Shown piece after piece: positions 31,228 through 46,357 of a DNA stretch of 64,000 nucleotides. A program made the translations under genes and the position numbers. Origin of the DNA: Pseudomonadota bacterium (GTDB lineage Bacteria > Pseudomonadota > Alphaproteobacteria > UBA2136 > UBA6156); assembly GCA_016125035.1 (NCBI GenBank), contig WGMN01000002.1, positions 17,790 to 81,789 on the forward strand, in the 5' to 3' direction. Below the pieces are notes generated by a model that was given only the letters and a program-made list of their open reading frames with translations, was not told the origin of the DNA and did not search any database. Positions within the stretch are counted from its first letter, which is position 1; every line of letters begins with the position of its first letter.

Positions 31228-31638
31228 TTAGGCCCTTCCCCCCTTTTCAAACGGGCGGAAACCAAACCAAAAGGCCAAAATCCCGGCCACAATCGCATAA
31301 TCTTCAGCCCCCAGGTCAATGCCCGCAACCCGCGCATACACGTACCAGAGAAATGCGGTAAAGGTAATCACCGGCCGCACCATGCCCCGGCACAGGTTCA
31401 CAACCGGCGGCATCGGCACACTGTTCATCGCGGTGTCGTGCTCACGTGCCTTGTCTATTTCGCCCATCAGCACCTGCATGGCCTTTTCGTCTTTCATCAG
31501 GTAGGCCTCCACCGCATCTCCCACTTTGCCCACCACCGTTTCGCTCACACCACTGTCCTTGGCCACATCGGCCTTGCGGCTCCTGAACACCTCAATCAGC
31601 CCGGCCAGTAAAGGCACCAGATAAGCAATCGCGTTCAC
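31228..31638 (-). CDS. putative 3-TM holin
   Basis: The 136 aa product has three hydrophobic helices (AIAYLVPLLAGLIEVF, VITFTAFLWYVYARVAGI and YAIVAGILAFWFGF). It overlaps the amidase stop by 4 nt. Confidence 0.5.
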   Translation of the reverse strand: MNAIAYLVPLLAGLIEVFRSRKADVAKDSGVSETVVGKVGDAVEAYLMKDEKAMQVLMGEIDKAREHDTAMNSVPMPPVVNLCRGMVRPVITFTAFLWYVYARVAGIDLGAEDYAIVAGILAFWFGFRPFEKGGRA

Positions 31639-32009
31639 GGCAACACCTCCCGCACCTCAAAGTTGGGGCAGGTCTTGTGGGGGTTGAAGTCCCGGTGCCC
31701 ATAAAAAGCAATGCCGGGGAACATCCCCGCCAACATGGCATGCACGCGCTTCAACGCAGCAAACTGGCCCGCGCTAAACTGGTCAACCCCCACCAGGCAG
31801 GTGCCCACACTGTCCAGGTTATGCCCTTCGCAGTGAGCGCCCACTACATCCAGGGTGCGCCCCACCTCAATCTCGCCATCGGTGCGGATAACAAAATGGT
31901 AGCCAATGTCATGCCACCCGCGCGCAATATGCCAGCGCCTTATCTCCGCCACATCGCCGTGCGTACTATCACTGCAGTGGATAATATGCTTGGTAATCAC
32001 TCGCATCAT
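31635..32009 (-). CDS. N-acetylmuramoyl-L-alanine amidase (PGRP / Amidase_2, T7-lysozyme-like endolysin)
   Basis: It carries the zinc ligands HCSDS...GWHDIGYHFVI...GHRDFNPHKTCPNF. Confidence 0.85.
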   Translation of the reverse strand: MMRVITKHIIHCSDSTHGDVAEIRRWHIARGWHDIGYHFVIRTDGEIEVGRTLDVVGAHCEGHNLDSVGTCLVGVDQFSAGQFAALKRVHAMLAGMFPGIAFYGHRDFNPHKTCPNFEVREVLP

Positions 32010-32010
32010 C

Positions 32011-32175
32011 CTACCCTTTCAAAATACCCCAGATAAACCCAACCGCTCCCGCCAGGGCCGAGAGCCCCCACGCCGCGCCCACCACAAAGCCGCGGTAATG
32101 CCCCATATCCTCGCGCAATTGGGCAATGTCGCCGCGTATCGCGCGCAGCTCTTCCACAATTCCTTCCACATCCAT
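32011..32175 (-). CDS. 54-aa protein with C-terminal TM helix (possible holin/antiholin-like lysis accessory)
   Basis: Own translation gives MDVEGIVEELRAIRGDIAQLREDMGHYRGFVVGAAWGLSALAGAVGFIWGILKG. Its stop is 1 nt before the amidase ATG. It is below the track size cut-off. Confidence 0.4.
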   Translation of the reverse strand: MDVEGIVEELRAIRGDIAQLREDMGHYRGFVVGAAWGLSALAGAVGFIWGILKG

Positions 32176-32245
32176 GTCATTCACTTTCGCTTGTTATACG
32201 GGCAGTTGTCTTGCTTGACGGCTGGGCAACAGCTAAGTTGAACCC

Positions 32246-32791
32246 ATGAGCTCAAGCAAACCCGGCCAGCCTGAAGGCGTGGAAAAAACCATTACCGCCA
32301 CTGCGCCGCTTACGCCGCAGCGCTACAACATCCTGCTCACCCGGCACGGAGAGGAAATCGACTTCGACTTCCCCCCCGCCACTGCCGACCTCATCACCCG
32401 CTTCGGCTACCTCGTCCCGCACGATGTCCGCTGCAAACCCGGCCTGGTGCAGAATGAGGAAGATCTCTACGCCATGCTCGAGGCCGTGCTCGGCCGCGGT
32501 TACCGCGGCAACCTGGCCTACCACACGCGCAAGCAGGTCATCATTTCGCTGCACGATACCGCCATCCTCGGCTACCAGCGCCAATCCATCATCGATCCCC
32601 GCCTCTCCAACGAGGTCGCCTTTTTCTGGGAGATCTACCTCGACCAACGCATCTTCCCCCAATCGCAGGAGGAAGACTGGCAAAACCTTCTCGGCGAGCT
32701 CGTCACCAACGAGAAGACCGACCCGGAGGCCGATAAAAAACTCGCCGAAGACATCAAAAACCGCCTGCTCGACCAAGCCAAGGAAGACTAA
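32246..32791 (+). CDS. hypothetical protein (opposite-strand ORF inside phage-like cluster)
   Basis: The 181 aa ORF has strongly GC-biased third positions. Its stop overlaps the stop of the convergent 32788..33174 ORF (CTAA). Confidence 0.5.
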   Translation: MSSSKPGQPEGVEKTITATAPLTPQRYNILLTRHGEEIDFDFPPATADLITRFGYLVPHDVRCKPGLVQNEEDLYAMLEAVLGRGYRGNLAYHTRKQVIISLHDTAILGYQRQSIIDPRLSNEVAFFWEIYLDQRIFPQSQEEDWQNLLGELVTNEKTDPEADKKLAEDIKNRLLDQAKED

Positions 32792-33174
32792 TTTCCTCCC
32801 GGCGCGGCAGCCGGCGCAGCTCCGCTTCCCAGCAGAGACTCCAACTCCTTAATCAGGTCATCCATGCGCAGCACCTGCACATGGCCGTCACTTGCCTTTA
32901 GCGTCAAGGCTTGCCCGTCGCCGCTCAACTGCAGGTCCACCAGCTTGGGGTGCAGCTGCAAGGCATTCCAGGCCATCATCGCCTGGCGGTTTTTTCCGTC
33001 CAGCAGCAGGCCCACTATCGTTTGCAGGCTCTCGGCGTTGTTCTTTATTTTCTCCATGTTCCCCTGCTGCTCTTGCAGGTATGCCACCACACTTTCCTTC
33101 CATGGCCGATAAACTTCGTCGCGCCATTGCGCCACGGTCATCTTGGCCGCCGCCTGGTTTTTCACTTCATTCAT
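32788..33174 (-). CDS. hypothetical phage protein
   Basis: The 128 aa product is tightly packed with its neighbours. Confidence 0.45.
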   Translation of the reverse strand: MNEVKNQAAAKMTVAQWRDEVYRPWKESVVAYLQEQQGNMEKIKNNAESLQTIVGLLLDGKNRQAMMAWNALQLHPKLVDLQLSGDGQALTLKASDGHVQVLRMDDLIKELESLLGSGAAPAAAPGGN

Positions 33175-33186: not shown

Positions 33187-33957
33187 CTATCGTCCAAACA
33201 GGCTGCCAAGCAGCGTGCCCGCCACGCCGCCCACCGGGCCGCCCAGCGCTGTTCCCACGGTGCCGCCCAGGGTTCGTCCCAGGCCGCCGCCAAAGGCATT
33301 GCCAAAGGCGGTGCCCCCGCTGCCTTGCGCGTTGTAATAATCCAGCAGGCTCGCCTGCCGTTGCAGGTTCATCGCGCTCATCTGGCTTTGCTGCTGCGTC
33401 GCTGCCTGCTGGGTCTTGGCTGCGTTTACGCTGTTGGTGGAAGACGCCAGGTTGTACAAGTTCTGCTGCAAAGCCAACTTGTCGCTGCGCACCTGGTTGG
33501 CCAGCTCATCTTTTTGCAGCTGCAGGTTTTGTTCGGTTGTCTGCTGGTCCAGGCTGCGCTTCCGGCGCACCTCCAACGCGGCGGATGAATCGCTCAACCC
33601 GCGCTGCGCCAAACTCTGCTCCTCTTGCTGTGTCCGTGCGCGCGCCTGGTCTGCCAGCAGTTTCTCCTGCACCCCCTGCCATTGGTCCAGCACCTTCTGC
33701 GTGTCGGCATCGGGCGTATACCCGGTGGCAGAAAGCTCCTGGATCTGCGCCAAACTGTCCTGCATAATTTTATCCAGCTCGTCCTTTTGCGCCTGCTGGT
33801 CAGCGGTCAGGGGTATGCTCTTTGTCACATAGGTCACGCTGCCGTCGGCGTTTGTCACCGGCACCTGCTCCACCCCGTTCACCTCGTCGCGCAAGGTGCT
33901 TGGCGGCGGGGCGGGCGGGGCACTGGGCTGCTTCACACTGCCAAAAATACTTCCCAT
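33187..33957 (-). CDS. hypothetical phage structural/ejection-type protein (Q-rich coiled coil + Gly-rich C-terminus)
   Basis: The 256 aa product has a C-terminal GSGGTAFGNAFGGGLGRTLGGTVGTALGGPVGGVAG glycine-zipper-like tail. Confidence 0.45.
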   Translation of the reverse strand: MGSIFGSVKQPSAPPAPPPSTLRDEVNGVEQVPVTNADGSVTYVTKSIPLTADQQAQKDELDKIMQDSLAQIQELSATGYTPDADTQKVLDQWQGVQEKLLADQARARTQQEEQSLAQRGLSDSSAALEVRRKRSLDQQTTEQNLQLQKDELANQVRSDKLALQQNLYNLASSTNSVNAAKTQQAATQQQSQMSAMNLQRQASLLDYYNAQGSGGTAFGNAFGGGLGRTLGGTVGTALGGPVGGVAGTLLGSLFGR

Positions 33958-33961: not shown

Positions 33962-34423
33962 CTAGTCCTCCTGTTTGCTCTTCAAGCGCCGCGGCATGGT
34001 GCGCGGCGTCATTGCCAGTATCGGCTCCTTCACATCCAGCGCGGTGGCGGGCACAAAGCCTGCCTGCAACGCAGCGTGCAGGGCCTTCTTGTTCTTCGGC
34101 TGCACCCACACGCAGCGCAACTTCAACACCTCAAAAGCCAGCCTGAACAACTCTCTCAACACTCCCGGCGTGGCCCACATGCCCTGGCTGTTGGCACGGC
34201 AGATCACATCAAAGAACGCAATCCCCTCCTCCGCCTCGCCAAACACAAAGCCCGCGGCAAGCTCACTGCCGTGCAGCAATCCGTACAGGCTGGATTTTTC
34301 AAAATACGGCTTGGCCTTGTCATACCTGTCCGGCACGTCGGGGAAGTTCCTGGCCACCATCAGCCGATACAACTCAGGCCAATGCGCACGCCCCAGCGCC
34401 ATCACCTCACAATTTTTCATCAT
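33962..34423 (-). CDS. hypothetical phage protein
   Basis: The 153 aa product lies immediately after the tail-fibre gene. Confidence 0.4.
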   Translation of the reverse strand: MMKNCEVMALGRAHWPELYRLMVARNFPDVPDRYDKAKPYFEKSSLYGLLHGSELAAGFVFGEAEEGIAFFDVICRANSQGMWATPGVLRELFRLAFEVLKLRCVWVQPKNKKALHAALQAGFVPATALDVKEPILAMTPRTMPRRLKSKQED

Positions 34424-34428: not shown

Positions 34429-35727
34429 TCAGGTTTTAATCACGTAGTTCAACATCAGGGCGGGCGGCATGTTCTGGCTGTTGCCGCTGCCGCTGTTGGC
34501 AAGGCCTATCCCGGTGGTGGCCACCGCCGTGTTGGAAGGGTCGGCACTAGAGTTGGTGGTCTGCGAATTATCCCACGACTTATACCCCCCGGAAGACCCA
34601 TTCCACTTGTAAAGCTGCGCACCAAAACTCGCGGTAGAAGTACTGGTCTGCCCGTGCGCGTGCCCGGGGTCGGTTACCGTGTGGGTATGCTGGTGCATGC
34701 TTTGGCTGCCCCCGCTGGCACCCAGGCTGCTGCCGTTAATACCGCTCACCCCGCTGGTCACCCGGCTGGCTGCCGTGCCGCCCATGTTATCGGTGCCGAA
34801 TACACTGCGCCCGCGCAAGTCCGGCAACGTAAAGGTGGTGGAACCATCCCCCGCACCAAAGGCGGTCCCCACCACCGCAAACAAGCCCGCATAGGTGGTG
34901 CGGCTCACGTTCTGGCCGTAGCACATCAACCAGCCGCTGGGCGCGCTGGCGCCGGCAAAGGGCATCACCGCTCCGGCAGGCATGGTCAGCAGGCTCAGCA
35001 GGCCGCCGGTCAGCTGCGCGGTGTCCACACTGGCGGCGGCCAGGCCGCTCACCCCGGCGGTATTAATCCGCGCCACCTCGCTGCCGGCGCAAAGCACCAC
35101 CAGGTCGTTGCTGTCTGCCTGCAAGCTGTAATCCACACTTGCCCCGGCCACCACCACACCATCACTGCGGCGCGGCATGTTGCCCAACCTGCCACTGGTC
35201 ACCGGCCCGTAACCCACCTGGGTCGGCGCCGCCGCAATCACCGCGGCGGCCCCGCTTTCGTCCACCAGCCCGGTCAGGGTCACGGTGGTCAAACCACCGG
35301 CATAAGCGGCACTCACCACATCCCCCATCAGCGGCACACCGCTCACCGTCACCTGCACGCGGCGGTTGGCACGGTAAATGGCGGTAAAATCTCCACCACT
35401 CATGCTAAACGCACTGTCACTCACCCGCGCCAGGGTGCCCGCGCCTGCCTGCACAATCCACTCGTCCAGCGCCCCGGCGGTCGAGAACTTCAACGTCCCG
35501 TCACTGTTCAAAGCCACATTCAACCGCTCGGCAATGCTGCTGCGCGAGCCGCTGGCCTCATCGATCGCATTCAGCGCATCCACCACATAGTTCATGTCGC
35601 CATCCACCTTGGTCGAGGATATCGCCCGCTTCGGCACAGCGGTGGAATCGTCACGGTACTTGCTGCGGTTGGCCAAACCGCTTGCGCCGCTGTAATCGCC
35701 GCTCGGCCGTTGATATTTCGTCGTCAT
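34429..35727 (-). CDS. tail fibre protein with C-terminal phage tail-collar domain
   Basis: The C-terminus PFAGASAPSGWLMCYGQNVSRTTYAGLFAVVGTAFGAGDGSTTFTLPDLRGRSVFG matches the tail-collar (Collar) domain. Confidence 0.7.
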   Translation of the reverse strand: MTTKYQRPSGDYSGASGLANRSKYRDDSTAVPKRAISSTKVDGDMNYVVDALNAIDEASGSRSSIAERLNVALNSDGTLKFSTAGALDEWIVQAGAGTLARVSDSAFSMSGGDFTAIYRANRRVQVTVSGVPLMGDVVSAAYAGGLTTVTLTGLVDESGAAAVIAAAPTQVGYGPVTSGRLGNMPRRSDGVVVAGASVDYSLQADSNDLVVLCAGSEVARINTAGVSGLAAASVDTAQLTGGLLSLLTMPAGAVMPFAGASAPSGWLMCYGQNVSRTTYAGLFAVVGTAFGAGDGSTTFTLPDLRGRSVFGTDNMGGTAASRVTSGVSGINGSSLGASGGSQSMHQHTHTVTDPGHAHGQTSTSTASFGAQLYKWNGSSGGYKSWDNSQTTNSSADPSNTAVATTGIGLANSGSGNSQNMPPALMLNYVIKT

Positions 35728-37466
35728 TGCTCAGCCACTCCATATAGTTTCAATCCAAACAGCGTCAGCGGCCCGTCGGTGGAGCCACTCTCCACCGCAT
35801 AAGCCAAAGCCTCCGCCACCACGTGGTCCCGCGCCACCGGCAACACCGTTTCGCTGCTGTCCCACAACCCTTCTTCCCACTCGCTGGTGTCCCACAGGTC
35901 GGGCACACTGGGCGGCAGCAAACTCATCACCGCCGGGTTGGCTTCGTCGTAATCGCGGTAACGCCTCACCGTCAGCGTCGGCTTGCTGCCCGGCGCCACC
36001 AGCAACTCCACATACTTTCCGGCCCAACGCTTGCCTTTGCCTGGGCTCAGCCACGGCAACCACCAACGCGTCTGCACCGCTTCGCCGTCATCGCTCCACA
36101 CCGTTTCGTCATAGGCATAAAGCTGGCCTCCCTTGGCCAGATAAAGCACCCCGCTGGGCGCCGTATGCGCACCGCTCACCCCCGCAAAGGCTCCATCAAA
36201 CACCACCCAGCCCTTGCCAAAGGCGCCCACCTGCCACACCAGCGTGCGGTCACTCATCGCCACTCCCAGCCAACCTTGCACGTCGTGGTGCATGGGCACC
36301 ACCCGCCGGTAAAGTTCGTCATCCGCCATCACCGCCGCCACCAGCTCGGTCACTGTCGGGTCAAGCTCGGCCCCCACATCGCTCACATCAAGCTGCTCGG
36401 TCTGCACCGTGCGCGAGAGGGTCCGCGCCCCCCCGCGCGTAAAAAACAGCAGGTCGTTGGGCAGCTCCAGCACCGCATCGCGGTGCATCACCCCCAGCGG
36501 AATAGTCTTGCTCCACGCAAAATCCCCCTCCGCATCCGGCACGCTGCCGGTCCACAACTGCATCTGGTGGCGCCCCAAAAACACGGTAATATTATCCTTC
36601 ACCGCCATCGCCATCAACTCATCGGCCACACCGGCCTTATCGGCCAGGTTAATGCTTGGCACCACGCCGGTTTCGGTATCCGGCCACGCGGTGTGGTCGT
36701 TCACCCCAAACGTGTAATACACCCGCAACCTGTCCACATCACCACTCATCACACGGCTGGGCGCCCCGGTGCCAAAGCCCCACAAGCGGTCATGCGCCAC
36801 GGCCAGATAAGCCACCCTCGGCGGCTTCACCGTAAAAGCCACGGCACTCAACGTGCTGTCCAGCACCCCCGCGTCCAGCGTCACCGTCACCACACCAGCA
36901 CTGGTGCTCACAGCGCTCACCAGCGCCGTCACCTCACCGCTGTCCAGCGTCGCCCGCACGGTGCTCCCAACCGGGTAGAACACCTCATCGCTCTCAATGG
37001 AAAACTGCGCCGCCCCAACATAGGCCAACCCCGCCGCAACATCTGTCACCATGGTCGCAACCACGCTCCAACTTGCACCGTCATAGGCCAGCACATCATC
37101 CACGCCATTGCACAGCAGCAGCTTTCCGGCAAAGCTCACCGTGCGCACCGCCCCACTGGGGTCCAGGCCGCTGTAAATCTCCTCCCAGCCATCACCATCT
37201 TGCCGATAAATCTTCCCCGCATCGCTCACCACCAGCAGCTGGTATCCGCCACTGGCCATAAAGCCGGTCACCGCCACAATCGCTTCACCATCCAGGGCAT
37301 CGCCCACACGCACCACACCGTTGCGCTTGCTGCCGGCGCCATCGCTGCCCATCAACATGTTGCGCACTTCACGCGCAAAGGTGCTGGGCATGGTCAGCGC
37401 GCTGCGCGCTGTGCTCATCAACCCGTTGGGGAAGGGCGCCACCACCGTGCTCAAATCGCTCTTCAT
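35724..37466 (-). CDS. hypothetical phage tail protein (580 aa)
   Basis: An AAGGAG RBS lies 7 nt upstream of the ATG. Its position between the capsid and the fibre suggests a tail tubular/nozzle component. Confidence 0.5.
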   Translation of the reverse strand: MKSDLSTVVAPFPNGLMSTARSALTMPSTFAREVRNMLMGSDGAGSKRNGVVRVGDALDGEAIVAVTGFMASGGYQLLVVSDAGKIYRQDGDGWEEIYSGLDPSGAVRTVSFAGKLLLCNGVDDVLAYDGASWSVVATMVTDVAAGLAYVGAAQFSIESDEVFYPVGSTVRATLDSGEVTALVSAVSTSAGVVTVTLDAGVLDSTLSAVAFTVKPPRVAYLAVAHDRLWGFGTGAPSRVMSGDVDRLRVYYTFGVNDHTAWPDTETGVVPSINLADKAGVADELMAMAVKDNITVFLGRHQMQLWTGSVPDAEGDFAWSKTIPLGVMHRDAVLELPNDLLFFTRGGARTLSRTVQTEQLDVSDVGAELDPTVTELVAAVMADDELYRRVVPMHHDVQGWLGVAMSDRTLVWQVGAFGKGWVVFDGAFAGVSGAHTAPSGVLYLAKGGQLYAYDETVWSDDGEAVQTRWWLPWLSPGKGKRWAGKYVELLVAPGSKPTLTVRRYRDYDEANPAVMSLLPPSVPDLWDTSEWEEGLWDSSETVLPVARDHVVAEALAYAVESGSTDGPLTLFGLKLYGVAEQ

Positions 37467-37478: not shown

Positions 37479-38114
37479 TCAAACCAAGGCATAGGGCTCA
37501 ACCCGCAACACCTCACCGGTGTTGGTCAATAGTGAAAGCTTCACCCGCTCTTTCGCCTCCGCCCAATTGCGCTGATAAAGCAGCAGCTCGCCCTGGGTGC
37601 CAAACCCGCGCTCAAACAGGCTGCTCCACACCATGCCACCCCACACCAGTGCGTGGTGGTGGGCTTTGGGCAGCAAAATGCTCGCCTCGCTGCCATCTTC
37701 CGCCAGGTCGCTCACCGCGGGCACATACAGCACGCTCAGGTTCGCCACCCCGGCCGGATGCACCGTCAGCACCGCCCCATCCACCGTGCACCGCTGCGGG
37801 CTGCCGCTGGCATTTCCCATCGGGTCCACATCCAAAATAACTGCCGGGCTCACCACTTCCAGGCTTGTGCCTGTGCCTTTGTCCACCACACGCAAAGTGC
37901 GGTAGGGCGTGCTCGCCAACGTCACCGTTCCGGCAATACTGGTGCTCACACTTTCCAGCCGCTGCAAACTGGGCGGAAGATAAGCCACCACTTCGTCCAT
38001 CAACTCGTGGTAGGCCGCATTCAGCCAGCCAATGGCCTTGCTTTCCACTTCGCCGTCCACGGCGGTGTCGTGGCTCAATTCCACAATCCGGTCGCGTATG
38101 CCGTTCACATCCAT
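37479..38114 (-). CDS. hypothetical phage tail/adaptor protein (~211 aa)
   Basis: The internal start MDVNGIRDRIVEL lies 9 nt after GGAGG. It is the first gene after the capsid terminator. Confidence 0.5.
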   Translation of the reverse strand: MDVNGIRDRIVELSHDTAVDGEVESKAIGWLNAAYHELMDEVVAYLPPSLQRLESVSTSIAGTVTLASTPYRTLRVVDKGTGTSLEVVSPAVILDVDPMGNASGSPQRCTVDGAVLTVHPAGVANLSVLYVPAVSDLAEDGSEASILLPKAHHHALVWGGMVWSSLFERGFGTQGELLLYQRNWAEAKERVKLSLLTNTGEVLRVEPYALV

Positions 38115-39273: not shown

Positions 39274-39320
39274 CCAGTCACTGTTCACTGGTCACTGTTC
39301 ACTATTAACTGTTCACTAAC
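39274..39320. repeat. heptamer tandem array (CACTGTT)x6 in capsid-gene leader
   Basis: The sequence reads cactgtt cactggt cactgtt cactatt aactgtt cactaac. Confidence 0.85.
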
Positions 39321-39951: not shown

Positions 39952-39982
39952 TGTTCACTGTTGACTGTTCACTGTTTACTGG
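39947..39982. repeat. heptamer tandem array (CACTGTT)x5 overlapping portal 3' end / scaffold leader
   Basis: The sequence reads ttcactgttcactgttgactgttcactgtttactgg. Confidence 0.85.
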
Positions 39983-41687
39983 CCCTCAACGCGGCCAGAA
40001 TAACCTCCTTATTCCGCACGCCACTTGCCTCCACCAACACTTCCGGCGGCACCGGCACCCCGGCCTGCACCAGCAACTGCAACTGCTGGGCCTCCATCTC
40101 GCGGGCGCTGCTCACATCGCGCACTTCTTCCACCACCACGTCAAATTCGGCACTGGCCAGGTCCGGCACCCTCAACACTTCGCCGTCCTCGCCCTTCACC
40201 GCTTTGCCATGCTCGTCCAGCACCGGCGCGTTCAGCGCGATCTGCCGCCCGGCCCCAAACTGGTCGGTAATGTGGATCACCATCTCCTGGGTAAAGAACT
40301 GCCGCATCAACCCCAACACCTGCTCGCCCAGCTGCTTCTTCACCAACCGCAGGGTGTCGTAGGCAAACATCTGGTTCAGGCTGCCGGCCATCTGCCGCTG
40401 CTGAATGGCCACCCCGCTGGTGGCATTGCTCTGCTTGCCGATGCTCTCATCAAACACGCCGATCGCTTCCTGGATATCCTTGCCCGCCTGCTCCATCACA
40501 TTCACCTGGCTCACCGCCAGGTCGGTGTTGCGGATAATGCGCAAATCCTTGCCGCTCTTTTTCAAGATGATCCCATCCGGCCGCGCCGCTTCCCGCGCCA
40601 GCACATTGGGGTCATCCACCGCATCCACATCGGCAATCACCTGCGCGGTGCTCAGCAAATGCATCGCCTTGCTTCTGCGCTTGTTCAACTCGCGCTGGGG
40701 GTCCAGCGTTGCCCGCACCAGGCCGTAGGGCCGCCCGTCCTTGCGCTGGCGCTTATACACAAACGGCACCAACGTAAAGCGGTTGTGGCGATAACTCAGC
40801 GGCCGGTTGTCCAGCAGCACATCACCTGCAAAGTAGGCCACCATCACCCGCGGCACCTCATTCACTTCTTCCACCACCGCACCGGGCACCTTGGTCTCCT
40901 TGCGCTCAAAGGTGGTCACCAGGCGGCCGTCTGCCAGGCGCACGCGCCATTGCCTGGCCGGATCCTTGTACTGCACCTCCACCAGGCGGAAAAGTTGCCG
41001 CTGCTGGTCAAAATACCCCATCTCGCTACCGCGCCCGGCCCTGCCAATGCCGTAAAGCGCAGCGCCCAGCCCGCCATTGCCGCTCAGCTGCACCAACACC
41101 TGATCGGCCTGGTCGGGGAACAACCCACGCACCTCACCCTCATCCATCCAACGCTCGCGCGCCACAAAGCGCGCATCGGCAAAGTCCATGCGCCGTGCCA
41201 TCGGGTCCCACACCACGCTAAATTCATCCTCGGCGCGGGCAAAGATCTGCGCCCCCTCCCCGGCCTCCTGCACACCAATGTCCAGCCACCCAATACCGGC
41301 CACCAACCCGGCGCGGAACACATTGCTTATCTCCAGCGCCTGGTCACCACGCTCGGCCACATAAAGCGCCAGGTCGGTCAACACCCGCGCGGCATCCTCC
41401 TCCTGCGCATCGCCGCTGCGGCTCTTGTAAACCACCCGCGTGCGGCCCACCACTTCACCACCTGCCAGGTTATCCACCTTGGCGGCAATCTTGTTGATCA
41501 CAATCGCCGCCTGCCCATTTTCCGCCAACTTGCTCGCCTCCTCGGCGGTCCACTGGTTGCCGTCGTAAAAGTCCCAGGCGGTGCGTGCCTCCGCCCGCCA
41601 GGTGGCGTAGGCGGTAGATGTCACCGCCGCCTCAAACCACCCCTTCACTTTCCCCAGCACTGCCGCGTTATCATTCGCATCCATCAT
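39969..41687 (-). CDS. portal (head-to-tail connector) protein, podovirus type
   Basis: The 572 aa product has an N-terminal WDFYDGNQW motif typical of T7-like connector proteins. Confidence 0.7.
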   Translation of the reverse strand: MMDANDNAAVLGKVKGWFEAAVTSTAYATWRAEARTAWDFYDGNQWTAEEASKLAENGQAAIVINKIAAKVDNLAGGEVVGRTRVVYKSRSGDAQEEDAARVLTDLALYVAERGDQALEISNVFRAGLVAGIGWLDIGVQEAGEGAQIFARAEDEFSVVWDPMARRMDFADARFVARERWMDEGEVRGLFPDQADQVLVQLSGNGGLGAALYGIGRAGRGSEMGYFDQQRQLFRLVEVQYKDPARQWRVRLADGRLVTTFERKETKVPGAVVEEVNEVPRVMVAYFAGDVLLDNRPLSYRHNRFTLVPFVYKRQRKDGRPYGLVRATLDPQRELNKRRSKAMHLLSTAQVIADVDAVDDPNVLAREAARPDGIILKKSGKDLRIIRNTDLAVSQVNVMEQAGKDIQEAIGVFDESIGKQSNATSGVAIQQRQMAGSLNQMFAYDTLRLVKKQLGEQVLGLMRQFFTQEMVIHITDQFGAGRQIALNAPVLDEHGKAVKGEDGEVLRVPDLASAEFDVVVEEVRDVSSAREMEAQQLQLLVQAGVPVPPEVLVEASGVRNKEVILAALRASKQ

Positions 41688-41973
41688 TGTCGCTCTCCTG
41701 TTCCAACACCAAAGTCACCCAGCCGTCCAAGCGGCCAATCACCACGCGCAACGCGGTGGCGCCATGCACACCACCACCTTCGCCCCCCTCAAAATCCAGC
41801 CACTGTGCCCCGCCCCTGCGCAACTGCTCGGGCGGATCATGGCTCACCTGCACACGCACCTCATCGCCGGCATGCTTGTTCAAACTAAAGCGGGCCACCG
41901 CACACTCCGGGCACAAAAAAACCGGCCTCATCCGGCCGGCACTGGCATAGATATACTCCCCTCGCAGTCTCAT
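41671..41973 (-). CDS. hypothetical small phage protein (~100 aa)
   Basis: The ATG at 41973 lies 6 nt after GAGGAG. It overlaps the portal start. Confidence 0.4.
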   Translation of the reverse strand: MRLRGEYIYASAGRMRPVFLCPECAVARFSLNKHAGDEVRVQVSHDPPEQLRRGGAQWLDFEGGEGGGVHGATALRVVIGRLDGWVTLVLEQESDNDGCE

Positions 41974-41989
41974 CTCAGGTCTCCTCACT

Positions 41990-42019: not shown

Positions 42020-43384
42020 CTAAACCGTTCGCCAGTCACTCAACTTCGCCCTTGGCCTCTCAACCTTGCGCAACTCGCCCTCGGCCCTGGCCAACGCCAA
42101 CCCGCTCACCAACGCATACCTGGTGGCATCCATCAGGTGGTCATCGCGCTTGGCCACACGGCCCTTGGCATCGCGGGCATAAAGGCGGAACTCATGCCAC
42201 CACGGCAACAAATCCGCAAACACCTTCAAGCGCCCACTGCGCATGCGCTCCAGCACCTGCATCAGGCCACCCTCCACCGCGTTTTCCGCCAGCGAAAAAT
42301 TCACCCCCGCAGCAGCATAACCCTCCACCAAACTGGCCCCGTCGCGCGCCCCCACTGCCTGCCCGGCGGGGTCGCACACAGCGGGTATCCACGCCCCTCT
42401 GCGCAAAATCTCCGCCGCATGCTCGGCGGGGATCCTCTCACTCGCGCAATAAGCATCCACCACATAAACCACATCGCGCGCCACATCATGCGCCAACCAC
42501 ACCGCAGCGGTGGGGTTGGCCCAACCAAAGTCCACGCCCACGCACCAGCGCCAATCTTTGGGGATGTCAAACCGCGGCACCGCGATCTCACTTTCCTCAA
42601 CCGGATAAACCCGCCCCCTCCCCACACTGGGCTCACCAAACTCGCGCGCCCTCACCTCAAAGGGCCGCAGGCTTTTGCGCAACCGCGCCACGGCATCTTC
42701 TTCCAGGTGTGGGGCGTCACACCACCCGGCCTGCACCACCGCCTTGCCTTCCAGCCGAGAACTCTCGCTGAAATGCCGCACCATCTCGGTCAACCCGTTC
42801 AACGGCGTCATCGTCAACATCACATGCCCTCCCACGGTTAAGGTTCGCAACAAACACTCTTCATAAACACCAATCTCCGGTTCTTCATCCAGGTGGATAA
42901 CCTCGCGCGCCGTGCCCTGGAAGCTCTCCCTCCCCTGGTCAAAGCTCTTAAACGCCAGCACACTTTTGCCGCCGCTCACATGCCGCACCTGCACCACGTC
43001 CACCGCGCCGCTCAACCCGCTCTTCATCGTCACCCCCAGCACCAACCGCTGCGGGATCACCCCCTGCGACCCCAAATAAACCTCCTGCAAAATGTCGCGC
43101 GTCATCTCGCGTGTCACACTGGCGGCCCAGGCACGCACGGGGCTGCCAAAGCGCGCGCCGCGCCACCATGCGGGGTAACGCCCGCTCAGGTGGAAGGCCA
43201 GCTCACACGCCCCGGCCAAGGTCTTGCCCACACGGTTACCGGCCAAAAACAACCGCTCCTTCGCCGCTACTCCGGCGGCATGGAAGTCCCTCTGCCTGGC
43301 ATGCGGACGGTACCAAAAAAGCGGGTCCCCCCGCACCTCCTGCACCGCCCGCGCCAGCCACCGCCTGCGCTGCCTGTCATCCAT
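42020..43384 (-). CDS. terminase large subunit
   Basis: The 454 aa product has a Walker A (AGNRVGKT) and a C-terminal nuclease-type region. Confidence 0.75.
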   Translation of the reverse strand: MDDRQRRRWLARAVQEVRGDPLFWYRPHARQRDFHAAGVAAKERLFLAGNRVGKTLAGACELAFHLSGRYPAWWRGARFGSPVRAWAASVTREMTRDILQEVYLGSQGVIPQRLVLGVTMKSGLSGAVDVVQVRHVSGGKSVLAFKSFDQGRESFQGTAREVIHLDEEPEIGVYEECLLRTLTVGGHVMLTMTPLNGLTEMVRHFSESSRLEGKAVVQAGWCDAPHLEEDAVARLRKSLRPFEVRAREFGEPSVGRGRVYPVEESEIAVPRFDIPKDWRWCVGVDFGWANPTAAVWLAHDVARDVVYVVDAYCASERIPAEHAAEILRRGAWIPAVCDPAGQAVGARDGASLVEGYAAAGVNFSLAENAVEGGLMQVLERMRSGRLKVFADLLPWWHEFRLYARDAKGRVAKRDDHLMDATRYALVSGLALARAEGELRKVERPRAKLSDWRTV

Positions 43385-43399: not shown

Positions 43400-43924
43400 T
43401 TACCAGTCTCCCTTGGCATAAGGCGAGGCAAACACCTCCCCTTTGCGCTTTTTCATCTCCTCATCATAACGCTGTTTAGCCTCAGCCTCCTGATCCGGTG
43501 TGGTGGGGTAAGGTATCGATTCTCCCATCAAAACACTGCCCCACGAGCGGTCGCGCAAAAACTTCTCACGCAGTTCTCCGGCTTCCTCGTCCGTCAGCTC
43601 GGGGTTGCGCTTGCGCTGGACAGCAACGTAAAGGTCGGCCTCCTGCCGAACCCGCAATCCAATATCATTGTTCACCACATCTGCCTGAGAGTCCGGCCTG
43701 TTGATCCCTTCCAATCTTTCTCTTGCATCCCCAAAAAGTCTAGCGGCACCTTTGCCTATGCTGTCAGCTAACTTTGCTGAAACATAGACATGTTGAAACG
43801 CATCCAGTTGCCGTGGATCGTCCATTCCATAATCCTCGCGCGCAATTTTCTGGGCTTGCTGACGCATGTTATCCAGGCTCACCGATACCTCAAAAGGCTG
43901 TCCTTTACCGGCTGGCATATTCAC
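43400..43924 (-). CDS. hypothetical phage protein (174 aa)
   Basis: An AAGGAG RBS is present. The gene lies upstream of terL. Confidence 0.45.
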   Translation of the reverse strand: MNMPAGKGQPFEVSVSLDNMRQQAQKIAREDYGMDDPRQLDAFQHVYVSAKLADSIGKGAARLFGDARERLEGINRPDSQADVVNNDIGLRVRQEADLYVAVQRKRNPELTDEEAGELREKFLRDRSWGSVLMGESIPYPTTPDQEAEAKQRYDEEMKKRKGEVFASPYAKGDW

Positions 43925-43940
43925 TATTCTCCTCTAGATG

Positions 43941-44073: not shown

Positions 44074-44259
44074 TTAAAAAAGCCATGTGAGCTTTTCTAT
44101 CCCTACCCAATGCTGGATATACATCCACTGCAAATTAAGCGACTTCCACTCAAAGAACATGGCCTGCCATAAACACCCCAACCCCAGCGCCAGCGGCACA
44201 CCCACCGCCCACTGCACCCACTTCACCAGTTTCGCATTTACTTTCGCCATTTTTGTCAT
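44074..44259 (-). CDS. small hydrophobic protein in AT-rich islet (hypothetical)
   Basis: The 61 aa product has one TM helix. A further 36-codon hydrophobic ORF follows at 43955..44065. Confidence 0.3.
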   Translation of the reverse strand: MTKMAKVNAKLVKWVQWAVGVPLALGLGCLWQAMFFEWKSLNLQWMYIQHWVGIEKLTWLF

Positions 44260-44277: not shown

Positions 44278-44664
44278 TCACTCCAATGGTATTTTCTCCC
44301 GCAACGCCTTCACCTCGGCTTCCAGCTCTTCAAGGCTCGGCACGGAGGCCTCTTCGGGCTTCACCGCCCCCAATCTCATATAAAGCAACCGCGCCGCCGC
44401 CACACTGCCCGCACGCGCCTTGGCCAGCATGGCACGGTCCACTGCCAGCAACTCGTCGGCCTCCACCGGGCGGCCTTTCAGGCGCGCCTCAATCTGGTCC
44501 TTCACTTCTTCGGTCAGGTAATCGCGCAGGGTCCTCACCCCCACCCGCGCCCGCGCCGCCAGCGCGCGGTGGCTCAACCCCGTGTTGGTCACATCCCCGG
44601 CCACGCTTAAGATCCTCTCCAGGGTCTTCGGGTTCATCTGATACCCGCTCTTGGTCAAGCCCAT
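44278..44664 (-). CDS. HTH DNA-binding protein (possible terminase small subunit)
   Basis: The internal start MGLTKSGYQMNP lies 5 nt after GGAGG. An HTH (LSHRALAARARVGVRTLRDYL) is present. It is the first gene after a terminator/promoter gap. Confidence 0.5.
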   Translation of the reverse strand: MGLTKSGYQMNPKTLERILSVAGDVTNTGLSHRALAARARVGVRTLRDYLTEEVKDQIEARLKGRPVEADELLAVDRAMLAKARAGSVAAARLLYMRLGAVKPEEASVPSLEELEAEVKALREKIPLE

Positions 44665-44835
44665 CTCCACCTCCCTTATAAGTAGCAAACCTCCCAACGG
44701 CAAAAGGCCGTGCTGTCGCCAGCACGGCCCTGCCTTTTATGCACCCCGTAAAAGCAAAGCGCCAAGGGGGTACCTCGGCGCGACTATATCAATTTCTAGC
44801 ATAAGTTGCTGCGCAAGTCAAGCACAAAATAACGT

Positions 44836-44886
44836 AGTGCCATCAAAAACAAGTCGGGGCCCGCGGTTTTAAGCTGCGGGCCCCTT
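44836..44886 (-). terminator. intrinsic terminator after 44889..45683 gene
   Basis: The minus-strand hairpin GGGGCCCGCAGC-TTAAAA-CCGCGGGCCCC is followed by GACTTGTTTTTGATGG. Confidence 0.6.
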
Positions 44887-44888
44887 CG

Positions 44889-45683
44889 TCATATTTCAAC
44901 CTTCGCCGGCTTCAACCGCCACATGTCGCAGTTCACCAAGGCTTCCACCTGGCCATCTTCACAAGCCAGGTCAACGCGGGCCCCTCCAGACTCAATTCCA
45001 AAAGGAGACCACCTGCGCAGCTTCAGCCACTCGGCGATCGCCAGCGCACGCGCAACCGCGTCGTTGGCAACGCCGTCCGCCTCCCACGCCGTACTCATCG
45101 CCAGCTGGCGCTGGCGATTATGCGAGAGCACAAGCAACGCCTTGTAGGGGAAGTCGCGCATAAGCTCGGCGTCCGCCTCGAAGACCCGCCGCGCATGGTC
45201 GCTCTCCACCCACACCACCAGCTCATCGTCGGCGGTCACATGGGTCTTGATGATGCCGAGGCTCGGCAACCCAGCCTTCAAGGCTGCCTTGCGGCGCTCG
45301 CTTTCGGGCAGGTCTTTCACCCCGCCCACCGGGCGTTTCAACACGCAGTCACGTCCACGCACGCAGGCTCCTGCCTGCACAGGGTAGTCCACGCCGTCAG
45401 GCACAAAGTCCACAAAGACACGGCCCCCTTTTTGTTCCGCCAGGCAAGCCGCCGCCGCCAGCGCCGCACAACCGTAAAAGCTGGCTTCCGCCCCTTTCCG
45501 GTCGTAAAAGCTCAGCGCGTAGCGCTTCCTCCCCACCGGGGAGAGGAACACGGTCTGCGGCGACTTAACCTTGATCTGCCGCAACACCTCCGCCCGCACG
45601 TCCGCGGGCAGCGCGGCGTCGGTCAGCACCACCGCCACTTCCACACCTGCAACCGTCAGTCTCGGTATCGTCAGAGCCGTCAT
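44889..45683 (-). CDS. hypothetical phage-cluster protein (265 aa)
   Basis: The start MTALTIPRL lies ~9 nt after AGGAGA. No family was recognised. Confidence 0.45.
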   Translation of the reverse strand: MTALTIPRLTVAGVEVAVVLTDAALPADVRAEVLRQIKVKSPQTVFLSPVGRKRYALSFYDRKGAEASFYGCAALAAAACLAEQKGGRVFVDFVPDGVDYPVQAGACVRGRDCVLKRPVGGVKDLPESERRKAALKAGLPSLGIIKTHVTADDELVVWVESDHARRVFEADAELMRDFPYKALLVLSHNRQRQLAMSTAWEADGVANDAVARALAIAEWLKLRRWSPFGIESGGARVDLACEDGQVEALVNCDMWRLKPAKVEI

Positions 45684-45796
45684 GGTTATGGTCTCCTGCC
45701 CGCATCCGCCGGGGCGTTGCGGGGCCAGGCCCAAACATCCAAGTTACGCTTTCTCGTGGGTTTTATGTATACCTTAAAGAACCCCCAAGCAACCCC

Positions 45797-46357
45797 TCAC
45801 CTGAACTCCCCACGCCGCACCTCACGTCCCCCCTCCTCTTCCCAGGGCATCACCGGCGCCACCACCACCAGCCCGCGCGCCACCAGCACCCGGCCCACCC
45901 CCTCCAGCGCCACCTGCAACCGCCGCCACGCGGTGCCACGGTCGCACCCCAGCAACCTGCCCAGCTGGGTGGTGGAGTACCTGTAACTTAAGCGAACATG
46001 CACCCCCTGCCGCCGCAATTTTTCCTTCATCGCCAAAGCCGCCCACAAGCGCTTTTCATCAGCCCAGTCGCCCCATGCCCACAGGCGCAGCAAGCGCGCG
46101 GCCTCGCTATCTGCCCGCGCCAGTTCATCCAGCGCGCCTTCCACCTTCAACGCCAGGTCAAGCCGCTCCACCGCGCCGTGCGGCAACTCCACCGCTTTTT
46201 CTCCTTCCCAGGCCCGCGCCACCGCGTCGGCTTCGTCACTCACTTCCTTCCATAAACTGCTCAATTTCGGCAGTCGCCGCCGCCGCAATACTTCGCAGCT
46301 CCACTGCAAGGCATGCTCGGCATCGGCAAAAACAGACGCTTGGGGGGTCGGTTGCAT
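45797..46357 (-). CDS. regulator with C-terminal sigma-70 region-4-like HTH
   Basis: The start MQPTPQAS follows GGAGGATAACCTG. The C-terminal segment RLSYRYSTTQLGRLLGCDRGTAWRRLQVALEGV is a region-4-like HTH. Confidence 0.45.
   Translation of the reverse strand: MQPTPQASVFADAEHALQWSCEVLRRRRLPKLSSLWKEVSDEADAVARAWEGEKAVELPHGAVERLDLALKVEGALDELARADSEAARLLRLWAWGDWADEKRLWAALAMKEKLRRQGVHVRLSYRYSTTQLGRLLGCDRGTAWRRLQVALEGVGRVLVARGLVVVAPVMPWEEEGGREVRRGEFR

What the first reader, a model, noticed from the sequence alone, without database searches (positions are those of the whole stretch)
31228..46357. Compact podovirus-like head, packaging, tail-fibre and lysis cluster with no integrase or replication module (candidate GTA-like or domesticated phage element)
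About 15 kb of co-oriented minus-strand genes sit between the conserved valS-popZ genes and ybjQ-pheA. In order of transcription they are: a sigma-region-4-like HTH protein, a 265-aa ORF, an HTH TerS-like protein, a 174-aa ORF, TerL (Walker A GNRVGKT), a small ORF, a podovirus-type portal (WDFYDGNQW), a scaffold-like protein, a 345-aa capsid candidate, two tail-body proteins (211 and 580 aa), a collar-domain tail fibre, three unknowns, then a 54-aa TM protein, a PGRP amidase and a 3TM holin. I found no integrase, excisionase, repressor, DNA polymerase, primase or helicase, and no obvious flanking direct repeats. No homologues of the T7 internal core or ejection proteins (gp14-16) are evident either. 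A structural-plus-packaging-plus-lysis module without replication or integration functions is the hallmark of gene transfer agents and other domesticated particles. Known alphaproteobacterial GTAs are HK97/siphovirus-like, so a podovirus-architecture element would be unusual. The alternative is a decayed T7-like prophage.
Basis: partly seen in the sequence, partly recalled or inferred. Interest (0 to 1): 0.75.

Follow-up and report, generated by a model that had tools for sequence, protein, structure and literature searches.

The report
Chromosomally fixed short-tailed phage particle genes
A 15-kb set of short-tailed phage head, packaging, tail and lysis genes, with no integration or replication genes found in or around it, has been inherited vertically at the same chromosomal spot and kept intact by selection across a deep, uncultured alphaproteobacterial lineage, which makes it a strong candidate for a new kind of gene transfer agent.

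Summary
Window 31,228-46,357 holds intact TerS-like, TerL, P22-type portal, scaffold, capsid, adaptor, nozzle, collar fibre and amidase/holin genes. No integrase, replication gene, tRNA or flanking repeat was found.

The comparative evidence favours domestication over decay.
- The same gene order recurs in more than 20 species-level MAG genomes.
- The chromosomal site is shared: ybjQ upstream, popZ-valS downstream.
- Portal divergence tracks ValS divergence (Mantel r = 0.88; 8 of 17 tree splits shared).
- In the two closest genome pairs every gene has dN/dS of 0.02-0.24, although synonymous sites are near saturation.
- Capsid identity (65-97%) exceeds that of host ValS.
- The best match in viral collections is about 36% (portal) to 45% (TerL).
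- One relative carries an internal deletion of about 11 kb at the same site.

A conserved consensus promoter, leader terminator and further internal terminators, together with a sigma-region-4-like protein, point to Q/GafZ-type antitermination control.

DNA packaging content and transfer are untested, so "GTA" remains an inference. Hosts are uncultured.

The parts
45797..46357 (-). g01, 186 aa. Sigma-70 region-4-like HTH protein and candidate Q/GafZ-type antiterminator or activator of the late operon.
   Evidence: Orthologues lie next to ybjQ in L002, L011 and L014-L017; a further orthologue lies at the start of L013. The family has only 62 representatives among 1.84e9 proteins. 20 of 47 members hit Sigma70_r4_2, 14 hit Sigma70_r4, and 3 hit Phage_antitermQ weakly. 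The PDB profile search matches RpoE and sigma region 4 at E = 0.002-0.008. The role itself is inferred.
44889..45683 (-). g02, 264 aa. ORF specific to this window, followed by its own strong terminator (hairpin 44856-44884). An insertion, not a core gene.
   Evidence: No orthologue in L001-L024. No Pfam, PHROG or NCBIfam hit. Sequence read.
44793..44821 (-). Late-operon promoter: TTGACT, 17-nt spacer, TAGAAA. The spacer carries a conserved GCAGCAACTT-type element.
   Evidence: Read. The same TTGACA-N17-TAGAAG layout with similar spacers is found in L001, L004, L005, L013, L016, L017, L021 and L022.
44700..44781 (-). Leader with two terminator-like hairpins (44759-44781 and 44706-44729, each followed by a T-rich tail), between the promoter and the TerS-like gene.
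   Evidence: A leader hairpin with a T7-8 run is conserved across loci.
44278..44664 (-). g03, 128 aa. HTH plus DUF5681, a candidate small terminase.
   Evidence: Pfam DUF5681, E = 2.4e-4. Orthologues sit upstream of TerL in the twelve loci where one was detected. A DUF5681 gene lies upstream of TerL in Xfas53 (adjacent) and in MAnkyphage (with a resolvase gene between); EBPR podovirus 1 annotates the gene next to TerL as TerS.
43400..43924 (-). g04, 174 aa, DUF6973. A variable insertion. Two small TM ORFs lie upstream of it at 43955-44259.
   Evidence: Pfam DUF6973, 2.4e-7. The only orthologue is in L007, at a different position.
42020..43384 (-). Large terminase (TerL), 454 aa.
   Evidence: Terminase_6N/6C. 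Walker A GNRVGKT. dN/dS 0.06. Best phage matches are 42-45% identical.
41671..41973 (-). g06, 100 aa. Conserved small protein between TerL and portal, function unknown.
   Evidence: Orthologues in 13 loci. Sequence.
39969..41687 (-). Portal, P22 type, 572 aa.
   Evidence: PF16510, 1e-111. Family members are 47-74% identical. The next-best matches are <=32% in genomes and <=36% in viral contigs.
39316..39951 (-). Scaffold-like protein, 211 aa.
   Evidence: Assigned by its position between portal and capsid. Conserved in 20 loci, and a gene at the same position is matched in viral contigs. No direct functional hit.
38190..39227 (-). Major capsid protein, 345 aa. Flanked by terminator-like hairpins at 39255-39270 and 38142-38171.
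   Evidence: PF13252 and phrog_334. Pairwise identity across the family is 65-97%; dN/dS 0.02. Hairpins.
37479..38114 (-). Head-to-tail adaptor, 211 aa.
   Evidence: PF24175 SU10_adaptor, 5.4e-8. The start codon was placed after the MCP terminator.
35724..37466 (-). Tail nozzle / tail tubular protein B-like, 580 aa.
   Evidence: phrog_5107 over the full length, 3.6e-21. The family profile matches MAnkyphage 'tail tubular protein gp12' at 6e-60. No PDB sequence hit.
34429..35727 (-). Tail fibre with Collar domain, 432 aa. Conserved N-terminus, variable C-terminus.
   Evidence: PF07484, 4e-24. Mean pairwise identity is 62% over the N-terminal 100 aa and 28% over the C-terminal part.
33962..34423 (-). 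g13, 153 aa. Possibly GNAT-like.
   Evidence: Weak match to phrog_4470 acyltransferase, 4e-4. MAnkyphage has an 'acetyl transferase' at the equivalent position. dN/dS 0.06-0.19.
33187..33957 (-). g14, 256 aa. Pro-rich N-terminus, coiled middle, glycine-zipper C-terminus. Candidate internal or ejection protein.
   Evidence: Conserved in 16 loci. The profile matches a 314-aa MAnkyphage protein in the tail-distal block at 3e-7. Sequence. The role is inferred.
32788..33174 (-). g15, 128 aa, function unknown.
   Evidence: Conserved in 13 loci.
32246..32791 (+). g16, 181 aa. Opposite-strand orphan gene embedded in the cluster. Among the most conserved genes of the cluster, comparable to the capsid.
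32011..32184 (-). g17, 57 aa, with a C-terminal TM helix. Lysis accessory protein (holin, antiholin or spanin-like).
   Evidence: TM segment and sequence. Conserved in 10 loci.
31635..32009 (-). Endolysin: N-acetylmuramoyl-L-alanine amidase, 124 aa.
   Evidence: PF01510 and phrog_822, 7e-42. Absent from the L004/L020/L021/L163 subclade.
31228..31638 (-). Putative holin, 136 aa, with hydrophobic segments. Last gene before popZ.
   Evidence: phrog_6637. Sequence. Lies adjacent to popZ in L004, L020-L022, L024, L163 and L165.

Best explanation
This is a domesticated, chromosomally fixed derivative of a short-tailed (podovirus-type) phage of roughly 35-45 kb. It kept only the late functions: small and large terminase, P22-type portal, scaffold, capsid, adaptor, nozzle, fibre, a few virion-internal proteins and a lysis cassette. 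The early, replication and integration modules are gone.

It has been passed down vertically in an uncultured, deep-branching alphaproteobacterial lineage. The ancestral position is between ybjQ and popZ-valS.

Proposed working, with each step marked as shown or inferred:
- A near-consensus sigma-70 promoter fires but transcription stops at a leader terminator. The sequence elements are shown; their function is inferred.
- In a subset of cells the sigma-region-4-like protein g01 loads onto RNA polymerase at the conserved spacer element. This makes the polymerase terminator-resistant, as lambda Q, BrrG and GafZ do, so it reads through the leader terminator and the terminators flanking the capsid gene to reach the tail and lysis genes (inferred).
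- Capsids are assembled and filled with DNA by TerS/TerL. The packaging machinery is under strong purifying selection (shown). The cargo is most likely host DNA (inferred).
- Particles are released by holin and amidase lysis, adsorb to related cells through the fast-evolving fibre tip, and deliver DNA (inferred).

In short, it most likely works as a gene transfer agent.
For: Anatomy.

No integrase, replication gene, tRNA or att repeat.

Conserved gene order in L001-L024 and L163.

Conserved site:
- ybjQ upstream in L002, L011 and L014-L017.
- popZ(-valS) downstream in L004, L020-L022, L024 and L163.
- Both flanks present in the window and in L165.
- In one subclade the upstream neighbour is the rnc-era-recO operon instead.

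Co-divergence with the host: Mantel r = 0.88, p = 1e-4 over 20 genomes. The NJ trees share 8 of 17 splits, against a null maximum of 3.

Purifying selection on every gene (dN/dS 0.02-0.24 in the two closest pairs) while dS is about 1-2. Capsid is 76-79% identical where ValS is 50-54%.

The family is discrete: 47-74% identity inside it, <=32-36% to anything else in GTDB genomes or IMG/VR, and <=36-45% to cultured phages.

Free-phage relatives with the same module order do carry replication and recombination genes: MAnkyphage, 38 kb. A 35-kb viral contig also shares the order, but only its structural part was examined.

Antitermination circuit. The same logic has been shown experimentally for CcGTA (bioRxiv 10.1101/2023.11.12.565669) and BaGTA (bioRxiv 10.1101/2024.11.20.624540).
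Against: - No data on what is packaged or whether DNA is transferred.
- Capsid size is unknown. If the head is still T=7 it could hold about 40 kb, more than the 15-kb cluster, which departs from the classical GTA criterion.
- No CtrA or LexA boxes upstream, so integration with host regulation is not shown.
- g01 is not adjacent in several loci (L001, L004, L005, L021), and its antiterminator role rests on weak domain similarity. The AF2 model was unusable.
- Whole genomes could not be scanned for a distant integrase or replication module.
- Some copies show frameshifts (L023; the nozzle gene in L020 and L163) or a large deletion (L165), so the element is not indispensable.
Confidence: 0.6

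Rival explanations
1. A domesticated particle used as a weapon or for another host benefit rather than for gene transfer. This would resemble the PBSX-type defective phage: particles package DNA but mainly kill or lyse competing relatives, or lysis serves eDNA or biofilm release.
For: The same comparative evidence fits: vertical inheritance, selection, and the absence of replication genes. The fast-evolving fibre tip fits strain-specific targeting. The glycine-zipper protein g14 could be membrane-active. Large podovirus ejection proteins are missing: MAnkyphage has about 1,400 aa in three tail-distal proteins whose ejection role I infer from position, against 256+128 aa here.
Against: TerS, TerL and portal are under selection as strong as the tail genes (dN/dS 0.04-0.07), which suggests the DNA cargo matters. 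A pure killing device such as a tailocin normally dispenses with heads.
Confidence: 0.2
2. An active but unconventional temperate phage or satellite. It would integrate site-specifically next to ybjQ/popZ using host or distant recombinases and replicate with host machinery. The shared location would then reflect a shared att site rather than vertical descent.
For: The structural and lysis set is complete and intact. A few variable 'moron-like' insertions (g02, g04) resemble phage accessory genes.
Against: No integrase, excisionase, repressor or replication gene, and no att repeats or tRNA. Only one flank is conserved in each subclade, and the other changes through ordinary chromosomal rearrangement. 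The element tree tracks ValS. There is one locus per assembly among the GTDB hits, and no family member appears among 2.9 million viral contigs. The deletion remnant sits at the same site.
Confidence: 0.07
3. A decaying prophage remnant with no function, as in the reader's alternative.
For: L165 has lost about 11 kb of the cluster. L023 shows frameshifts in the portal and capsid genes and in-frame stops in the nozzle gene. The nozzle gene is split in L020 and L163.
Against: All 20 genes are intact in the window. dN/dS is far below 1 in every gene across lineages whose synonymous sites are saturated. Capsid is more conserved than ValS.
Confidence: 0.03

Closest known systems
RcGTA-type gene transfer agents (Rhodogtaviriformidae; Rhodobacter, Caulobacter CcGTA)
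   Same: - A head-tail-lysis cluster of about 14-15 kb, chromosomal, without replication or integration genes.
- Vertically inherited and under purifying selection in Alphaproteobacteria.
- The operon is controlled through terminators and a sigma-region-4-like factor (GafA/GafZ; papers read).
   Different: - Unrelated structural genes. Here the portal is P22-type, the capsid PF13252, the adaptor SU10-type and the nozzle gp12-like, with no tape measure or siphovirus tail genes.
- A different host lineage.
- Lysis genes lie inside the cluster.
- No CtrA boxes found.
- Cargo and transfer are untested.
BaGTA of Bartonella (Bartogtaviriformidae)
   Same: A constitutive-type promoter plus leader terminator, overcome by a Q21-like processive antiterminator with a sigma-R4-like fold (bioRxiv 10.1101/2024.11.20.624540). 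Here the matching sequence elements are a promoter, a leader hairpin and an upstream sigma-R4-like gene.
   Different: No run-off replication module is seen here. Homology of the structural genes was not tested. g01 has no demonstrated similarity to BrrG.
FpGTA of Faecalibacterium (Nat Commun 2026, PMC12946183)
   Same: A GTA-like element inferred to be podovirus-like, with packaging, head, short-tail and lysis genes.
   Different: The host is a Firmicute. The element is split into two operons, and 8-9 kb packaging was shown experimentally. That paper calls FpGTA the first podovirus-like GTA-like element, so the present family would be the first in Alphaproteobacteria.
Podophages with the DUF5681-TerL-portal-capsid-gp11-gp12-collar-fibre order: Megaira phage MAnkyphage (OP381185), EBPR podovirus 1, Xylella phage Xfas53, Rhizobium RHph_N2 group
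   Same: The same module order, and detectable homology of TerL (42-45% identity), portal, capsid, nozzle and g14.
   Different: These are 35-45-kb genomes. MAnkyphage, the one whose annotation was examined, carries a replication initiator, recombinases, a resolvase and regulators. They are not fixed in host chromosomes. Identity to the window is far below the within-family level.
PBSX-like defective prophages / phage-derived killer particles
   Same: A chromosomal, non-replicating particle gene set that includes a capsid and terminase, released by lysis.
   Different: PBSX is a contractile-tailed Bacillus element, and there is no homology to it. Its function, killing, differs from gene transfer. 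Sequence alone cannot tell the two functions apart here.

Membership tests
Gene transfer agent / viriform (general definition, Kogay et al. 2022, PMC9662315) | Phage-like structural, packaging and lysis genes encoded in the cellular chromosome | tested here: met
   Housekeeping flanks.
Gene transfer agent / viriform (general definition, Kogay et al. 2022, PMC9662315) | No means of self-replication, integration or excision | tested here: met
   None among the roughly 60 window ORFs scanned, or in the neighbourhoods of related loci that were examined. No tRNA or att repeats. Whole genomes were not scanned.
Gene transfer agent / viriform (general definition, Kogay et al. 2022, PMC9662315) | Vertical inheritance and co-evolution with the host lineage | tested here: met
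   Shared chromosomal site. Mantel r = 0.88. 8 of 17 shared splits.
Gene transfer agent / viriform (general definition, Kogay et al. 2022, PMC9662315) | Genes maintained by purifying selection | tested here: met
   dN/dS 0.02-0.24 for all genes in the two closest genome pairs.
Gene transfer agent / viriform (general definition, Kogay et al. 2022, PMC9662315) | Particles package essentially random host DNA, in pieces too small to carry the whole element | not testable with these tools
   Needs particle DNA sequencing. Capsid T-number cannot be read from sequence.
Gene transfer agent / viriform (general definition, Kogay et al. 2022, PMC9662315) | Delivery of packaged DNA to recipient cells | not testable with these tools
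   Hosts are uncultured MAG lineages.
Gene transfer agent / viriform (general definition, Kogay et al. 2022, PMC9662315) | Production under host regulatory control | tested here: inconclusive
   A promoter, leader terminator and sigma-R4-like g01 are present. No CtrA or LexA boxes.
RcGTA-like (Rhodogtaviriformidae) | Homologues of the RcGTA head-tail genes (HK97-type portal and capsid with protease, tape measure, siphovirus tail) | tested here: not met
   P22_portal, Phage_capsid_3, SU10_adaptor and a gp12-like nozzle. No tape measure or prohead protease.
Functional temperate P22-like/T7-like podophage | Integrase or excisionase, repressor, and replication (or RNAP/DNAP) modules contiguous with the late genes | tested here: not met
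   The cluster abuts ybjQ and popZ directly.
Capsid-forming phage satellites (cf-PICI and similar) | Integrase, a primase/replication module and dependence on helper tails (no tail genes) | tested here: not met
   Own adaptor, nozzle and fibre are present. No integrase or primase.
Tailocin / phage-tail-like bacteriocin | Tail genes only, with no capsid, portal or terminase | tested here: not met
   Capsid, portal and terminase are present and strongly conserved.
Lambdoid Q-type late-gene antitermination circuit | Constitutive promoter followed by a short leader ending in an intrinsic terminator, upstream of the late genes | tested here: met
   nine loci including the window.
Lambdoid Q-type late-gene antitermination circuit | A Q-family antiterminator protein | tested here: inconclusive
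   The g01 family shows sigma-R4-like hits and only 3 of 47 weak Phage_antitermQ hits. The structure model was unusable.

The most novel reading that the evidence does not exclude
An independently domesticated, podovirus-derived gene transfer agent. It would be the first short-tailed GTA type in Alphaproteobacteria. It would have been fixed since the common ancestor of an order-to-class-level uncultured lineage that includes a MarineProteo1-type MAG, run by a Q/GafZ-like antitermination switch, and it carries a lineage-restricted, highly conserved antisense gene (g16) with no detectable fold relatives as an added control or maturation factor.
Probability: 0.5. Interest if true: 0.85.

Novelty: new variant of a known kind. 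Interest (0 to 1): 0.75.

Why it matters
Only a handful of GTA families are known, and the alphaproteobacterial ones (RcGTA/CcGTA, BaGTA) come from other phage stocks. A vertically inherited, P22-portal, short-tailed particle cluster would be a further independent domestication.

If so, it would show three things:
- The route [quoted passage not shown] is convergent.
- Large trans-envelope ejection proteins may be dispensable for such particles.
- Phage-derived DNA exchange may operate in abundant but uncultured marine and freshwater alphaproteobacteria that feature in debates on deep alphaproteobacterial phylogeny.

It also gives concrete handles for experiments: a promoter-leader-terminator cassette, a candidate antiterminator, and an orphan conserved gene.

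Tried and rejected
- Profile searches of the nozzle, g14, g16 and g01 families against PDB sequences gave nothing significant, apart from weak sigma region 4 matches for g01.
- The afdb50 library was unavailable.
- Single-sequence AF2 of g01 gave pLDDT 42 and was discarded.
- NCBIfam added nothing.
- A search for CtrA (TTAA-N7-TTAA) and LexA (GTTC-N7-GTTC) boxes upstream of g01 and g03 in all loci found none.
- Alignment of the ybjQ-g01 intergenic region showed no family-wide motif.
- Rfam and tRNA scans were empty.
- The direct-repeat search found no att-like repeats.
- The metagenome scan with TerL was swamped by generic 40-48% phage TerLs. It did not settle whether the rearranged marine subgroup (L003, L018) keeps TerL elsewhere.
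- ValS homologues gave no named genus down to 48% identity, so the host order remains unnamed.
- The first ORF call for 32.2-32.8 kb, on the minus strand, was rejected in favour of the plus-strand gene.

Full report
**1. What is in the window**

The minus strand of 31,228-46,357 carries an uninterrupted set of intact genes. The families are as follows.
- g01 (45797-46357): a sigma-region-4-like protein.
- g03 (44278-44664): an HTH/DUF5681 protein in the small-terminase position.
- TerL (42020-43384): Terminase_6N/6C, Walker A GNRVGKT.
- g06: a small conserved ORF.
- Portal (39969-41687): P22 type, 1e-111.
- A scaffold-position protein.
- Capsid (38190-39227): PF13252, with phrog_334 at 1.5e-65.
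- Adaptor: SU10 type.
- A 580-aa protein whose family profile matches the gp12 'tail tubular protein' of Megaira phage MAnkyphage at 6e-60.
- A Collar-domain fibre.
- Three small conserved proteins (g13-g15).
- A 57-aa TM protein, an Amidase_2 endolysin and a hydrophobic 136-aa putative holin.

The flanks are ordinary housekeeping genes. ArgS, ValS and a PopZ-like DUF2497 protein lie on one side. YbjQ, PheA, a PAS-GGDEF protein and DsbD lie on the other.

None of the roughly 60 window ORFs scanned with Pfam matched an integrase or a replication family. That set comprises the cluster genes, nearly all the larger ORFs and some small ones, and several larger ORFs matched no family at all. There is no tRNA, no Rfam match and no bracketing direct repeat. 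GC content and GC skew do not stand out from the surroundings.

It is filled by a plus-strand 181-aa gene (g16).
- The 265-aa (g02) and 174-aa DUF6973 (g04) ORFs are insertions largely specific to this window.

**2. Distribution**

The portal has about 117 homologous protein clusters at 47-74% identity. Every one that a source names is attributed to an uncultured Alpha- or Proteobacteria MAG. Many lie on contigs of 0.1-1.35 Mb.

In one-genome-per-species GTDB data there are 21 carriers at 47-71% identity. After a sharp gap, nothing else exceeds 32%. Carriers include MarineProteo1_Bin2, UBA6156, CG_4_10_14_0.8_um_filter_53_9 and several obviously mislabelled MAGs.

MarineProteo1 is described in the literature as a MAG-only, early-branching lineage (PMC10411912 and PMC8879329). 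ValS of the window finds no named genus down to 48% identity.

No family member is present in 2.9 million IMG/VR contigs, where the best portal match is 36%. Among 50,697 phage records the best matches are portal 35%, TerL 45% and capsid 36%.

**3. Synteny**

tblastn of the window proteins against 24 loci shows the same order throughout: TerS-like, TerL, g06, portal, scaffold, capsid, adaptor, nozzle, fibre, g13, g14, g15, g16 (reverse strand), g17, amidase, holin.

The chromosomal position is shared.
- ybjQ lies immediately upstream in L002, L011 and L014-L017. pheA and the GGDEF gene follow in L002 and L015, and the GGDEF gene in L011.
- popZ(-valS-argS) lies immediately downstream in L004, L020-L022, L024 and L163.
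- The window and L165 have both flanks.

In the L004/L005/L021 subclade the upstream neighbour is the spoT-acpS-lepB-rnc-era-recO operon instead. That is an ordinary rearrangement with no recombinase involved.

L165 carries a chimeric ORF that fuses the 5' part of g01 to g14. This is an internal deletion of about 11 kb that removed the packaging, head and tail genes. It left g15, g16, g17, amidase and holin between ybjQ and popZ.

A more distant relative, L164 (ValS 56%), has no cluster next to popZ-valS. A marine subgroup (L003, L018; portal 47-48%) has a rearranged order without TerL or fibre nearby.

**4. Vertical descent and selection**

Pearson and Mantel r are 0.88, with p = 1e-4. NJ trees share 8 of 17 internal splits, whereas label permutation gives a mean of 0.2 and a maximum of 3.

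Even in the closest locus pairs (L002/L014, L004/L021) synonymous sites are near saturation, with dS of 0.7-2.3. Nevertheless dN/dS is 0.02 for capsid, 0.04-0.07 for portal, 0.06 for TerL and nozzle, 0.04-0.07 for g14, and at most 0.24 for any gene. The flanking host genes popZ (0.13) and ybjQ (0.007) are comparable.

Capsid identity across the family is 65-97%, with a mean of 78%. It stays at 76-79% in genomes whose ValS is only 50-54% identical to the window's.

The fibre keeps its N-terminal 100 residues (62% mean identity) while the C-terminal part drifts to 28%. This is the pattern expected of a receptor-binding tip.

Together these results exclude a decaying prophage for the window copy. 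They also make recurrent site-specific integration very unlikely.

**5. Ancestry**

The nearest bona fide viruses share the module order, at low identity.
- MAnkyphage (38 kb, Megaira host) has the order DUF5681, TerL, portal, capsid, gp11, gp12, collar protein, acetyltransferase, then three proteins of 314-656 aa. It also carries a replication initiator, Bet/exonuclease, a resolvase and regulators. Family profiles hit its TerL (5e-158), gp12 (6e-60), portal (3e-52), capsid (3e-19) and the 314-aa protein (g14, 3e-7).
- A 35-kb IMG/VR contig and a 17-kb metagenome contig show the same order.

Relative to such phages the element has lost everything except the late genes. Its tail-distal block is much smaller: 256 + 128 aa against about 1,400 aa. 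Reading that block as internal or ejection proteins is my inference from its position.

**6. Regulation (inferred from conserved sequence)**

In the window, 129 nt upstream of the TerS-like gene, lies TTGACT-N17-TAGAAA. It is followed by two terminator-like hairpins.

The same layout occurs in L001, L004, L005, L013, L016, L017, L021 and L022. That layout is TTGACA, a 17-nt spacer with a similar GaCGCAACTT-type core, TAGAAG or TATAxx, then a 30-60-nt leader ending in a strong hairpin and T7-8. It persists despite saturated synonymous divergence.

Terminator-like sites on both strands of the region number 32, against 16.3 +/- 4.0 in shuffles; 24 of them are on the operon strand. They recur before and after the capsid gene in most loci. 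One apparent site lies inside g06 coding sequence and may not be functional.

The g01 family is small, with 62 representatives in 1.84 billion proteins. Of 47 members scanned, 20 hit Sigma70_r4_2, 14 hit Sigma70_r4 and 3 hit Phage_antitermQ weakly. The family profile aligns to region 4 of RpoE and ECF sigma factors at E = 0.002-0.008.

This is the architecture of lambdoid late control. Published work also shows it for two GTAs.
- In CcGTA, GafZ is an antiterminator whose binding element lies between the -35 and -10 hexamers.
- In BaGTA, BrrG is a Q21-like antiterminator with a sigma-R4-like fold, acting at a constitutive promoter followed by a leader terminator.

I therefore propose g01-dependent processive antitermination as the on-switch. 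This is not shown. g01 is not adjacent in some loci, and its structure could not be modelled.

**7. The orphan gene g16**

g16 is encoded antisense between g15 and the lysis cassette. It is among the most conserved genes of the cluster, comparable to the capsid (mean column identity 72% over 10 loci). It has only 127 detectable homologues; the 120 listed are all at least 55% identical, and every named one comes from this kind of MAG.

**8. Comparison with known systems and verdict**

The element meets the testable GTA/viriform criteria:
- it is chromosomal;
- it lacks replication and integration genes;
- it is vertically inherited;
- it is under purifying selection.

It fails membership of the RcGTA family because its structural genes are unrelated. 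The defining behaviours, random host DNA packaging and transfer, cannot be tested here. Head capacity is also unknown.

A 2026 paper describes FpGTA of Faecalibacterium as the first podovirus-like GTA-like element (PMC12946183). My literature searches found no description of the present family.

I rate it a new variant of a known kind.
- Confidence that it is a domesticated, vertically inherited particle gene set: about 0.9.
- Confidence that it functions as a GTA: about 0.6.
- Main rival: a PBSX-like killer or lysis particle.

Noticed in passing
window 32246-32791 (+): A 181-aa orphan gene (g16) is encoded antisense inside the cluster. It is 65-89% identical across the family and has only 127 homologues, the named ones all from this kind of MAG. 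The AF2 model is confident, but there is no fold or sequence relative. It is retained even in the deletion remnant L165.
   Followed up: yes
window 39264-39325, 39948-39981, 41985-42018: Tandem 7-nt repeats, read on the coding strand as (A/C)CAGTGA or GTAACCN, lie just upstream of the start codons of the capsid, scaffold and g06 genes. They are absent from the equivalent intergenic regions of the other loci.
   Followed up: partly
L165 6311-7273 (GCA_036261915.1, DATAJX010000001.1): A 320-aa chimeric ORF fuses the 5' part of g01 to g14. It marks a deletion of about 11 kb that removed the packaging, head and tail genes, while g15, g16, g17, amidase and holin stay intact between ybjQ and popZ.
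   Followed up: partly
L020 4080-5818 and L163 3098-4839: The nozzle gene is split at the same place (472 aa plus about 124 aa in another frame, with overlapping similarity) in two independent assemblies. It could be a shared frameshift or small duplication rather than a sequencing error.
   Followed up: no
L003 5400-13970 and L018: The marine subgroup (portal 47-48%) has a rearranged order: scaffold, capsid, adaptor, nozzle, g13, portal, g14, g15, amidase, holin. No TerL, TerS-like gene, fibre, g16 or g01 lies nearby. It may be a split multi-locus arrangement.
   Followed up: partly
L004, L020, L021, L163 (between g17 and the holin): The amidase endolysin is missing from this subclade although g17 and the holin remain adjacent. 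The endolysin may be encoded elsewhere or replaced.
   Followed up: no
window 44889-45683 (-) and 43400-44259 (-): These are window-specific insertions inside the element. One is a 264-aa ORF with its own strong terminator. The other is a DUF6973 protein preceded by two tiny TM ORFs. They resemble phage morons.
   Followed up: partly
window 58929-59321 (-): A gene for a 23S rRNA-intervening-sequence protein (PF05635) sits among cell-envelope genes, far from any rRNA in the window.
   Followed up: no
L023 (JBLILN010000033.1): The portal and capsid genes are broken into two and three reading frames and the nozzle gene carries in-frame stops, yet amino-acid identity stays high in every fragment. 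This is either long-read indel errors or very recent decay.
   Followed up: partly
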